Origin: Halobacteria archaeon
GTDB lineage: Archaea > Halobacteriota > Syntropharchaeia > JACQPP01
Reading direction: 5' to 3'
DNA: 64,000 nucleotides
NCBI GenBank assembly: GCA_038869515.1
Contig: JAWCQZ010000003.1
Location: 126,884-190,883 of the forward strand
Part shown: positions 6,083-6,239 of the stretch, piece by piece
Numbering within the stretch: the first letter of the stretch is position 1
Layout of the letters: each line of letters opens with the position of its first letter
The notes under the pieces: model-generated
Told to the model about the DNA's origin: nothing
The model's input: only the letters and a program-made list of their open reading frames with translations
Databases searched by the model: none
Made by a program: the position numbers and the translations under genes

Positions 6083-6239
6083 CGCAAAACCCTGCCCTCG
6101 CTCGCTGCGCTCGCTCGGGCGCGTTTTGCGGGAGTTGCCATGAATGGCGACCCCGCAGAACTCGGCCCGAGCCGAAGGCGAGGGCCAGAGTTCTGCGCCC
6201 GCGCGAGGCGAGCGAACGGAGTGAGCGAGCCTCGCGCGG
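6083..6239. repeat. Cluster of three palindromic hairpins between convergent gene ends (family 1 and family 3 elements)
   Basis: CGCAAAAC…GCGTTTTGCG flanking a CCCTCGCTCGCTGCGCTCGCTCGGGCG core (6083-6130); CGCAGAACTC…GAGTTCTGCG (6154-6197); CCGCGCGAGG…CCTCGCGCGG with loop GAGCGAACGGAGTGAGCG (6198-6239). Related copies at 34370-34419, 56972-57047 and 45851-45868. Confidence 0.55.

What the first reader, a model, noticed from the sequence alone, without database searches (positions are those of the whole stretch)
6083..6130. Family-1 short palindromic repeat elements (GCAAAATCGC … GCGATTTTGC around a conserved core) in at least three loci
Copies at 6083-6130, 34370-34419 and 56972-57047 (reverse orientation, 1.5 units) share 10-bp inverted arms around a core of about 28 nt (CCCTCGCTCGCTGCGCTCTCTCGGGCG). 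Two copies lie between convergent gene ends. The third lies in a divergent promoter region and extends into the annotated 5' end of tatD. Conserved core plus inverted arms resembles REP/MITE-like elements rather than generic terminators, and could encode a small structured RNA.
Basis: seen in the sequence. Interest (0 to 1): 0.6.

Follow-up and report, generated by a model that had tools for sequence, protein, structure and literature searches.

The report
Mobile palindromic repeat in an archaeon
The three "family-1" copies are a real family of short hairpin-forming repeats, of the REP type known from bacteria, that inserted recently into the genome of an uncultured archaeon. One copy sits inside the start of a gene, and the core is a stem built from CGAG units that bacterial repeats also use.

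Summary
**Observation: confirmed.** The 25-nt core occurs three times in 64 kb, against 0 expected by chance. It sits in or next to inverted arms GCAAAA(T)C(GC)/…GATTTTGC.

**What it is:** a non-autonomous, REP/RPE-like palindromic insertion element in an archaeal MAG (GCA_038869275.1, labelled "Halobacteria archaeon").

**Main evidence:** all three sites are empty in close relatives.
- Copy 2 is an in-frame +15-codon insertion after codon 3 of tatD. It lies downstream of the TATA box, so it is not in the promoter.
- Copy 3 replaces the last six codons of uL15.
- Copy 1 lies in a 197-nt run of five adjacent hairpins. A relative has about 30 nt at the same place.

**Core structure:** CC-(CGAG)n-C[GNA]G-(CGAG)n-GG. 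CGAG pairs with itself through tandem G·A mismatches, so one strand folds better than its complement.

**Wider distribution:** the same 25-mer occurs in 17 genomes of six bacterial and two archaeal groups. Its 17-nt form is the tip of abundant (T/C)GTC-tagged bacterial REPs.

**Not supported or unknown:** there is no own promoter, no Rfam match and no transposase in the window, so a small-RNA gene is not supported. The mobilising enzyme is unknown. A hairpin-specific single-strand DNA transposase is my inference.

**Verdict:** a new variant of a known kind, of moderate interest.

The parts
6083..6130 (-). Unit U1: arms CGCAAAAC/GTTTTGCG around the 25-nt core. The G/A-rich strand (the better-folding one) is the minus strand.
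   Evidence: RNA fold -27.4 kcal/mol on the minus strand vs -21.4 on the plus strand.
6095..6119 (-). 25-nt core of U1, CCCGAGCGAGCGCAGCGAGCGAGGG, i.e. CC-(CGAG)2-C[GCA]G-(CGAG)2-GG.
6134..6151 (+). Small hairpin GTTGCCAT-GA-ATGGCGAC. Its first 9 nt (6134-6142, GTTGCCATG) are the flank shared with copy 2.
   Evidence: Read. The shared flank is in family D8.
6048..6080 (.). G+C-rich hairpin CCGCGCCCGC...GCGGGCGCGG, first member of the five-hairpin cluster between the convergent genes.
6154..6197 (+). Related unit with different arms (CGCAGAACTC/GAGTTCTGCG) and an n=1 core, GGCC-CGAG-CC[GAA]GG-CGAG-GGCC.
   Evidence: (-65.5 kcal/mol together with the next unit, z = -8.0).
6199..6239 (+). Related unit with arms CCGCGCGAGGC/GCCTCGCGCGG and core GAGCGAAC[GGA]GTGAGCGA, which has two tandem G.A modules.
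34372..34419 (-). Unit U2: arms GCAAAATCGC/GCGATTTTGC around the 25-nt core (34384-34408). It is an in-frame insertion within codons 4-20 of tatD, and the G/A-rich strand is the mRNA sense strand.
34423..34431 (+). GTTGCCATG flank shared with copy 1. On the minus strand it reads CATGGCAAC and contains the tatD start codon (ATG at 34430-34428).
34454..34460 (.). Shared TATA box TTTAAAA. It lies 23 nt from the tatD ATG (minus strand, 34430) and 20 nt from the ATG of the DUF7343 gene (plus strand, 34481). It places U2 inside the transcript, not in the promoter.
   Evidence: Read. The same TATA-to-ATG spacing (21-25 nt) is seen in relatives L025, L148 and L149.
56975..57014 (+). Unit U3: the same 10-bp arms around the short n=1 core GGC-CGAG-AGAAG-CGAG-GCC (56985-57003). 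It starts 24 nt after the uL15 stop codon.
57018..57046 (+). Lone 25-nt core (57020-57044) with a G+C clamp and no A/T arms.

Best explanation
Family-1 is a family of short, non-autonomous palindromic insertion elements. It behaves like bacterial REP/BIME sequences and Rickettsia RPEs, but it lives in an archaeal genome.

**Anatomy (shown).** Each unit is a composite hairpin made of:
- 8-10-bp outer arms carrying an A4/T4 run;
- a short G+C clamp;
- a core CC-(CGAG)n-C[GNA]G-(CGAG)n-GG.

Because 5'-CGAG-3' pairs antiparallel with itself (C-G, G.A, A.G, G-C), the two 'arms' of the core are direct repeats of CGAG. The G/A-rich strand folds into a stem with tandem G.A pairs and a GNA triloop. The complementary strand has C.T mismatches and folds less well.

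**Behaviour (shown).**
- Copies have entered different sites in this lineage only.
- They pile up in the short spacers between convergent genes.
- They can land in frame in the non-essential ends of genes (the tatD N-terminus, the uL15 C-terminal tail).

**Mechanism (inferred).**
- The strand-asymmetric hairpin is the feature recognised on single-stranded DNA by an enzyme supplied in trans. The most likely candidate is an HUH/Y1 (IS200-type) transposase.
- n changes by slippage of CGAG units.
- Any effect on the host is secondary. On RNA the units give very stable hairpins with a U4 run in the 3' arm in both directions, which could stop or protect transcripts of the convergent genes. In tatD the unit adds 15 residues and places a hairpin of about -26 kcal/mol ten nucleotides after the start codon.
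For: 1. **Common origin, not chance.** Three cores against 0 expected. U1 and U2 share 57 nt at 81%. U2 and U3 share CTTGCAAAATCGCG...GCGATTTTGC and differ by an 8-nt contraction of the core.

2. **Insertion polymorphism at all three sites.**
 - tatD: orthologues at 82-87% identity are 253 aa and start MAA(S/P)(G/R)P(I/F/L)DAHCHL. The window has MAT[LQNRARESAASEGCDF]APIDAHCHL.
 - SepF / 72-aa gene spacer: 197 nt in the window. It is about 30 nt with no repeat in L152 (SepF 94%), and 203 nt of different palindromes in L150 (SepF 96%).
 - uL15 / 79-aa gene spacer: 101 nt in the window against 6 nt in L154. uL15 is 134 aa here against 139-140 aa in the seven closest orthologues.

3. **Hairpin and strand asymmetry.** RNA folds are -27.4 vs -21.4, -26.2 vs -24.5 and -65.5 vs -60.2 kcal/mol for the G/A-rich strand vs its complement. 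The asymmetry is weaker with DNA parameters.

4. **The tandem G.A module is specific.** Hairpins of this geometry number 51 with GA/GA, against 7-30 for other dinucleotides, in 887 kb. Flanks of GAGCGNAGCGA are complementary in 131 of 215 cells against 91.5 +/- 7 in shuffles (maximum 117 of 2000), with C-G, T-A and G-C alternatives.

5. **The same core occurs in bacterial REPs.** The exact 25-mer is in 17 genomes: Gemmatimonadota, Acidobacteria/Terriglobia, Myxococcota, Actinomycetota, Acidimicrobiia, Thermoplasmatota and a related Halobacteria MAG. The 17-mer carries TGTCA/GTCA tags, A-T as the first stem pair, and inverted doublets. These are the features of CGTC-tagged REPs (PMC3733652), which also occur inside genes.

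6. **Clusters in other archaea.** Clusters of different palindromes occur in the related MAG (L014) and in a Thermoplasmatota MAG after a tRNA gene (L010).
Against: - No transposase gene is in the 64-kb window or in any fetched flank of this lineage.
- RAYT-class enzymes are reported as absent from archaea; only IS200-type TnpA is found there (PMC6006769).
- CGTC-type REPs have no known dedicated transposase.
- No target-site duplication is visible.
- Only three full copies and four related units could be examined, so genome-wide copy number is unknown.
- The strand asymmetry is small with DNA parameters and absent for copy 3.
- The 9-nt flank CATGGCAAC shared by U1 and U2 is unexplained.
- Identity of the 25-mer across phyla could be convergence, since the rule CC-(CGAG)2-CGNAG-(CGAG)2-GG nearly fixes the sequence.
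Confidence: 0.7

Rival explanations
1. The units are primarily host terminators or 3'-end protectors. On this view they are bidirectional hairpins with U4 runs, selected in place between convergent genes, and their similarity reflects common functional constraints rather than mobility.
For: - Copies 1 and 3 lie exactly between convergent stop codons.
- Each arm pair gives GCGAUUUUGC on both strands.
- Other convergent spacers of the window carry A/T-run palindromes: 21083-21109, 35239-35267, 47912-47938 and 61821-61860.
- The folds are very stable.
Against: - Close relatives have 6-nt and roughly 30-nt spacers with no hairpin at the same gene pairs, so the units are dispensable.
- Copy 2 sits 10 nt inside the tatD reading frame, where a terminator would be harmful.
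- Identical 25-nt cores and 13-nt arm strings at unlinked loci mean copying, not independent evolution.
- The T run is only 4 long. From general knowledge, archaeal termination usually needs T5 or more.
Confidence: 0.15
2. Each copy is a gene for a small structured RNA of 50-80 nt.
For: Stable folds with z-scores of -2 to -8, and complementary changes in the stems across loci.
Against: - There is no TATA/BRE-like promoter next to any copy.
- One copy is inside an ORF.
- The copies are absent from relatives at 82-96% protein identity.
- Rfam has no match.
- Stem covariation in a palindromic DNA repeat does not distinguish RNA from DNA structure.
Confidence: 0.05
3. The CGAG direct repeats are double-stranded binding sites for a DNA-binding protein (nucleoid, topology or regulatory). 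The hairpin potential would then be incidental.
For: - The core can be read as [CGAGCGAG]-CGCAG-[CGAGCGAG].
- From general knowledge, E. coli REPs bind gyrase and IHF.
Against: - Flanking clamps and arms co-vary to keep pairing.
- Left and right CGAG numbers usually change together, n=1 or n=2 on both sides. That is expected for a stem and not for a binding site.
Confidence: 0.05

Closest known systems
CGTC-tagged REPs (Di Nocera, De Gregorio and Rocco 2013, PMC3733652), which include Neisseria dRS3 and Rickettsia RPE-4/RPE-6
   Same: - Short G+C-rich palindromes, dispersed and clustered, with some copies inside genes.
- No dedicated transposase is known.
- The bacterial loci that share this core carry the (T/C)GTC tag, an A-T first stem pair and head-to-head doublets.
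   Different: - The window's units have no CGTC/TGTC tag, no AT-first stem and no CCA tail.
- The loop is a structured 19-27-nt core rather than 4-5 nt.
- The host is an archaeon, and that paper lists bacterial phyla only.
GTAG-type REP / BIME / REPIN with RAYT transposases (E. coli, Pseudomonas)
   Same: - Imperfect palindromes of 20-50 bp.
- Preference for spacers at the 3' ends of convergent genes.
- Mosaic clusters of different units.
- Presence/absence variation between relatives.
- Mismatches inside the stem that make one strand distinct.
   Different: - No GTAG tag.
- No RAYT in the window, and the RAYT class is not reported in archaea.
- No regular inverted doublets in the window.
Rickettsia palindromic elements (RPE)
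   Same: In-frame insertion into protein-coding genes without destroying them. Copy 2 adds 15 residues to TatD. L148 has a second palindrome that adds 43 residues inside TatD.
   Different: RPE-1 is about 100-150 bp. The host and the sequence are unrelated.
MITEs
   Same: Small, non-coding, inverted ends, insertion polymorphism.
   Different: - No target-site duplication.
- No parent insertion sequence identified.
- 40-50 bp, which is much shorter than typical MITEs.
d(GCGAAGC)-type mini-hairpins with sheared G.A pairs and GNA triloops (Hirao and co-workers; cited from my own knowledge)
   Same: The apex C[GNA]G closed by G-C pairs, and tandem G.A in the CGAG context, are the same structural devices.
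   Different: Those are biophysical model sequences and phage-origin hairpins, not a dispersed repeat family.

Membership tests
REP (repetitive extragenic palindrome), broad sense | Imperfect palindrome of about 20-50 bp able to form a stem-loop | tested here: met
   Units of 40-48 bp with perfect 8-11-bp outer stems. Folds of -26 to -36 kcal/mol.
REP, broad sense | Many dispersed copies per genome, mostly extragenic | tested here: inconclusive
   There are 3 full and 4 related units in 64 kb, of which 6 are extragenic and 1 intragenic. The rest of the genome could not be read with these tools.
REP, broad sense | Clusters of different units (BIME-like) | tested here: met
   Five adjacent hairpins at 6048-6239 and two at 56975-57046. 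Similar clusters occur in L014 and L010.
GTAG REP / REPIN-RAYT system | Unpaired GTAG tag at one end | tested here: not met
   The flanks are ACTCC/GTTCC, ACCTT/GCC and GACTT/CCC, with no GTAG.
GTAG REP / REPIN-RAYT system | A RAYT (Y1 HUH) gene flanked by the repeats | not testable with these tools
   None is present in the window or the fetched flanks. RAYT classes are not reported in archaea (PMC6006769).
CGTC-tagged REP superfamily | Unpaired CGTC/TGTC/CCTC tag, an 8-9-bp stem starting with A-T pairs, a 4-5-nt loop, a CCA tail | tested here: not met
   The window units lack all four features. The bacterial and viral-contig hairpins sharing the core do carry (T)GTCA + TCCC...GGGA + TCT.
MITE | Terminal inverted repeats plus a target-site duplication, derived from an insertion sequence | tested here: not met
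   Comparison of filled and empty sites shows no duplication. No related insertion sequence was found.
Mobile or insertion-polymorphic element (behavioural criterion) | Filled site in one genome, empty orthologous site in close relatives | tested here: met
   Met at 3 of 3 sites.
Rfam RNA families | Match at the gathering threshold | tested here: not met
   Only one tRNA in the window. Only tRNAs in L001-L017. Only chance-level microRNA-type hits at E<=10.

The most novel reading that the evidence does not exclude
The (CGAG)n-GNA hairpin may be a structural module that crosses the bacterial-archaeal divide and spreads, or is regenerated, without a dedicated transposase. It might be handled by a conserved host enzyme that processes single-stranded DNA. 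That would explain why CGTC-type REPs have no cognate transposase, and why the same 25-mer is found in Gemmatimonadota, Acidobacteria, Myxococcota, Actinomycetota, Thermoplasmatota and Halobacteria-affiliated archaea. The archaeal units, stripped of the bacterial tag, would be the minimal form of that module.
Probability: 0.12. Interest if true: 0.75.

Novelty: new variant of a known kind. Interest (0 to 1): 0.45.

Why it matters
REP-type repeats are well studied in Proteobacteria but barely characterised in archaea, which are reported to lack the RAYT transposases thought to move them.

This case gives a concrete archaeal family with direct evidence of recent insertion, including remodelling of two protein termini.

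It also gives a simple structural rule: self-pairing CGAG units with tandem G·A pairs. That rule links the archaeal family to very abundant bacterial repeats whose means of spread is an open question.

In practice, such elements create spurious N-terminal extensions and small ORFs in MAG annotation.

Tried and rejected
- **Metagenome scan with the arms** (GCAAAATCGC-N15-35-GCGATTTTGC). It was swamped by an unrelated soil GTAG-type REP (gtagggtgg-GCAAAATCGC-N35-GCGATTTTGC-ccacgcgg) and returned no copies from the archaeal lineage. Two low-G+C contigs (L028, L085) have the same arms around GAGCGAAGCGAG; I did not follow these up.
- **Literature search for the core as a text string.** Only two unrelated papers came back.
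- **Rfam**, at gathering score and at E<=10. Nothing relevant.
- **PLSDB plasmids**, blastn with the 68-nt unit. Only chance-level hits, E>=0.5.
- **Viral contigs.** The 25-mer is absent. The tagged 17-mer is present in 50 contigs. That shows how widespread the bacterial form is but says nothing about the archaeal units.
- **Same-population assemblies** (SRR27730035-37). They are 99.8-100% identical to the window and show no polymorphism at copies 2 and 3, so I had to use more distant relatives.
- **K-turn or K-loop (L7Ae site).** Considered and rejected: the tandem G·A pairs are flanked symmetrically, without the 3-nt bulge that defines a K-turn (from my own knowledge).
- **attC sites, CRISPR repeats, intrinsic terminators.** Considered and rejected on anatomy.
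- **Generic scan for tandem-GA hairpins in the window**. It gave 25 hits against 9.5 in shuffles, but most hits were noise in coding sequence.

Full report

The window is 69% G+C. The core CCCTCGCTCGCTGCGCTC[G/T]CTCGGG is found at 6095-6119 (+), 34384-34408 (+) and 57020-57044 (-). No shuffle of the window gives a single match.

Perfect-stem hairpins sit at three places:
- 6083-6130, arms CGCAAAAC/GTTTTGCG;
- 34372-34419, arms GCAAAATCGC/GCGATTTTGC;
- 56975-57014, the same 10-bp arms.

In the third locus the arms enclose a shorter core (GGCCGAGAGAAGCGAGGCC), and the full 25-mer lies just beside them. Copies 1 and 2 are similar over 57 nt (81%), including 9 nt (GTTGCCATG) outside the palindrome. 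The sequence is the same in the NCBI MAG and in three independent Logan assemblies.

**2. Source and gene context.**

The window is part of contig JAWCRK010000003.1 of MAG GCA_038869275.1, which NCBI labels "Halobacteria archaeon". Its genes are archaeal: SepF, MTD, FpoO, Nre, MC1, tRNA-splicing endonuclease.

- **Copy 1** lies between a 72-aa ORF (+, ends 6046) and SepF (-, ends 6244). The whole 197-nt spacer is five adjacent hairpins: 6048-6080, 6083-6130, 6134-6151, 6154-6197 and 6199-6239.
- **Copy 3** lies between uL15 (+, ends 56951) and a 79-aa gene (-, ends 57053).
- **Copy 2** lies between the divergent tatD and DUF7343 genes, but on the tatD side of the shared TATA box (TTTAAAA, 34454-34460). 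That TATA is 23 nt from the tatD ATG (34430) and 20 nt from the other ATG (34481). This spacing fits leaderless archaeal mRNAs and is kept in three relatives. Copy 2 is therefore transcribed and lies within codons 4-20 of tatD.

No transposase is present in the window.

**3. Anatomy.**

Read on the G/A-rich strand, every core follows one rule: CC-(CGAG)n-C[GNA]G-(CGAG)n-GG. The tetranucleotide CGAG pairs with itself in antiparallel (C-G, G·A, A·G, G-C). So the stem is made of direct CGAG repeats and contains tandem G·A mismatches in the CGAG context, capped by a GNA triloop.

- n = 2 gives the 25-mer of family-1.
- n = 1 gives the cores of 56985-57003 and 6164-6186.
- 6210-6228 is a variant with an A-T/C-G inner stem.

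RNAfold predicts exactly these 2x2 internal loops and favours the G/A strand over its complement: -27.4 vs -21.4, -26.2 vs -24.5 and -65.5 vs -60.2 kcal/mol. With DNA parameters the difference is smaller, and for copy 3 it is absent.

Two tests over all 887 kb of fetched DNA support the structure:
- Hairpins of this geometry are about five times commoner with GA/GA than with most other dinucleotides.
- The unselected flanks of the module GAGCGNAGCGA are complementary far more often than in shuffles: 131 vs 91.5 ± 7 of 215 cells, using C-G, T-A and G-C pairs.

**4. Evidence for insertion.**

*tatD.* The four orthologues at 82-87% identity are 253 aa and begin MAA(S/P)(G/R)P(I/F/L)DAHCHL. The window protein begins MAT-LQNRARESAASEGCDF-APIDAHCHL. 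The DNA shows ATG GCA ACC followed by the palindrome and then GCG CCC ATA GAC. In the relatives L025 and L149, five codons separate ATG from (I/L)D. The element is therefore an in-frame insertion of 15 codons.

A more distant relative (L148, an outgroup at 73-78%) has a different n = 1 unit (GCGGG-CGAG-CGGAG-CGAG-CCCGC) at the same codon. This means either two gains at one site or one gain followed by a precise loss.

*SepF spacer.* L152 (SepF 94%) has about 30 nt and no repeat. L150 (96%) has 203 nt filled with other palindromes with arms GTTGCC...GGCAAC, one of which holds CCCGAG-CCCGCGAAGCGGG-CGAGGG.

*uL15 spacer.* L154 has 6 nt between the stop codons. L153 has 82 nt with a piece of a different, G-run family. 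The window has 101 nt, and its uL15 lacks the last six residues found in the closest orthologues...GGKVS* against ...GGKVVSSVTSS*.

All three family-1 sites are thus filled here and empty in a close relative.

**5. Relatives elsewhere.**

The exact 25-mer occurs in 17 other genomes: Gemmatimonadota (most), Terriglobia/Acidobacteria, Myxococcota, Actinomycetota, Acidimicrobiia, a Thermoplasmatota archaeon, and the related Halobacteria MAG GCA_964486625.1.

In the bacteria it is flanked by gat...atgac and accompanied by many copies of the 17-nt form, gtcatCCCGAGCG(N)AGCGAGGGatc. These are often inverted doublets 40-130 bp apart. The tagged 17-mer is also in 50 IMG/VR contigs, most often as tgtcaTCCCGAGCGAAGCGAGGGAtctgcttt.

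These features are those of the CGTC-tagged REP superfamily: a (T/C)GTC tag, a stem starting with A-T, head-to-head dimers, intragenic copies and no known transposase (PMC3733652).

In the Thermoplasmatota contig the same core sits, as in the window, inside A/T-containing arms (ctgtgaaaaca/tactttcacaag) in a cluster after a tRNA gene. The related Halobacteria MAG has a cluster with three cores.

Whether the archaeal and bacterial cores share ancestry or converged cannot be decided. The structural rule nearly fixes the sequence, and asymmetric variants (n = 1 left, n = 2 right, in L010) suggest slippage of CGAG units.

**6. Interpretation.**

The best-supported reading is a selfish, non-autonomous palindromic element of the REP/RPE kind.

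*Shown:* common origin of the copies, hairpin anatomy, insertion polymorphism, clustering between convergent genes, and tolerance in gene termini.

*Inferred:*
- Movement through a single-stranded DNA intermediate, in which the asymmetric hairpin is recognised by an enzyme acting in trans. IS200-type Y1 transposases are the only class of that superfamily reported in archaea (PMC6006769).
- Length change by CGAG slippage.
- Side effects on RNA, namely stable hairpins with U4 in both directions.

The element is not a member of the GTAG or CGTC families, because it lacks their tags. Nor is it a MITE, because there is no target-site duplication.

A terminator-first explanation is weakened by the empty sites in relatives and by the copy inside tatD. 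A small-RNA gene is weakened by the lack of promoters, the lack of conservation and the lack of Rfam matches.

**7. Unexplained.**

- The 9-nt flank CATGGCAAC is shared by U1 and U2. In U2 it contains the native-looking tatD start codon.
- GGCAACCTTG also ends one palindrome of L150.

This could mean a target preference, co-mobilised flank, or an outer GTTGCC/GGCAAC arm family. More copies are needed to decide.

**8. Verdict.**

It is a new variant of a known kind, with three points of added interest: the archaeal host, the remodelling of two protein ends, and the self-pairing CGAG core shared with abundant bacterial repeats. A 2025 survey already claims REP-like palindromes in archaea in a loose sense (PMC12306157).

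Interest 0.45.

Noticed in passing
window 21078-21110 and 47911-47943: A second palindromic repeat family, GTCACAAGAATTTTCGC-TGC-GCGAAAATTCTTA. The two copies are 33 nt long and 97% complementary to each other, and both are intergenic.
   Followed up: no
window 22948-22999 and 48958-49012; L148 2088-2246; L153 about 2480-2520: A family of G-run/C-run palindromes containing GGGCGGGCCTGTGGACGGGG.
- One copy lies inside the long (593-aa) tRNA-splicing endonuclease ORF at 21691-23472.
- In L148 a perfect 19-bp palindrome of this type, together with downstream sequence, adds 43 residues in frame inside TatD.
- A fragment fills the uL15 spacer of L153.
   Followed up: partly
window 45780-45900; L014 750-830 (reverse strand): An element of about 110 nt with ends GGCGCCCG...CGGGCGCC and internal GAGGAGCGGCGCTGGGC and GAGCGAACGAAGTGAGCG. 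It is shared with a non-syntenic locus of the related MAG, and in both genomes it lies just upstream of a start codon.
   Followed up: partly
window 8943-8971 and 54724-54752: A 29-nt A/T-rich direct repeat, ATATCACATCTCTCACTCTT(T/C)TCTGG(A/C)AT, 93% identical between the two copies and apparently intergenic. It may be a shared promoter or regulatory motif.
   Followed up: no
L018 18640-20372, about 2-3.7 kb beyond the window start: Genes with AmoB/PmoB (PF04744) and AmoA/PmoA (PF02461) domains, i.e. a copper membrane monooxygenase. They are in the same contig as MTD and FpoO, in a MAG labelled Halobacteria.
   Followed up: no
L029-L147 (soil metagenome contigs): A very abundant soil bacterial GTAG-type REP, gtagggtgg-GCAAAATCGC-N35-GCGATTTTGC-ccacgcgg / ccaccctac, happens to use the same 10-bp inner arms as family-1.
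   Followed up: partly
L028 6186-6227 and L085 666-713 (38-42% G+C contigs): The same arms GCAAAATCGC/GCGATTTTGC enclose GAGCGAAGCGAG-type loops inside a longer A/T-rich palindrome, in low-G+C organisms.
   Followed up: no
L010 1580-1900 (Thermoplasmatota MAG): Directly after a tRNA gene there is a mosaic of two core units with arms tgtgaaa.../...tttcaca and three copies of CAATGCTTTCGGCGCCGCAGCGCCGAATGCTTTG.
   Followed up: partly
window 35239-35267, 47841-47866, 61821-61860: Single-copy palindromes with T/A runs lie immediately after gene ends. One abuts tRNA-Ser (61734-61818). These may be the ordinary bidirectional termination signals of this genome.
   Followed up: no
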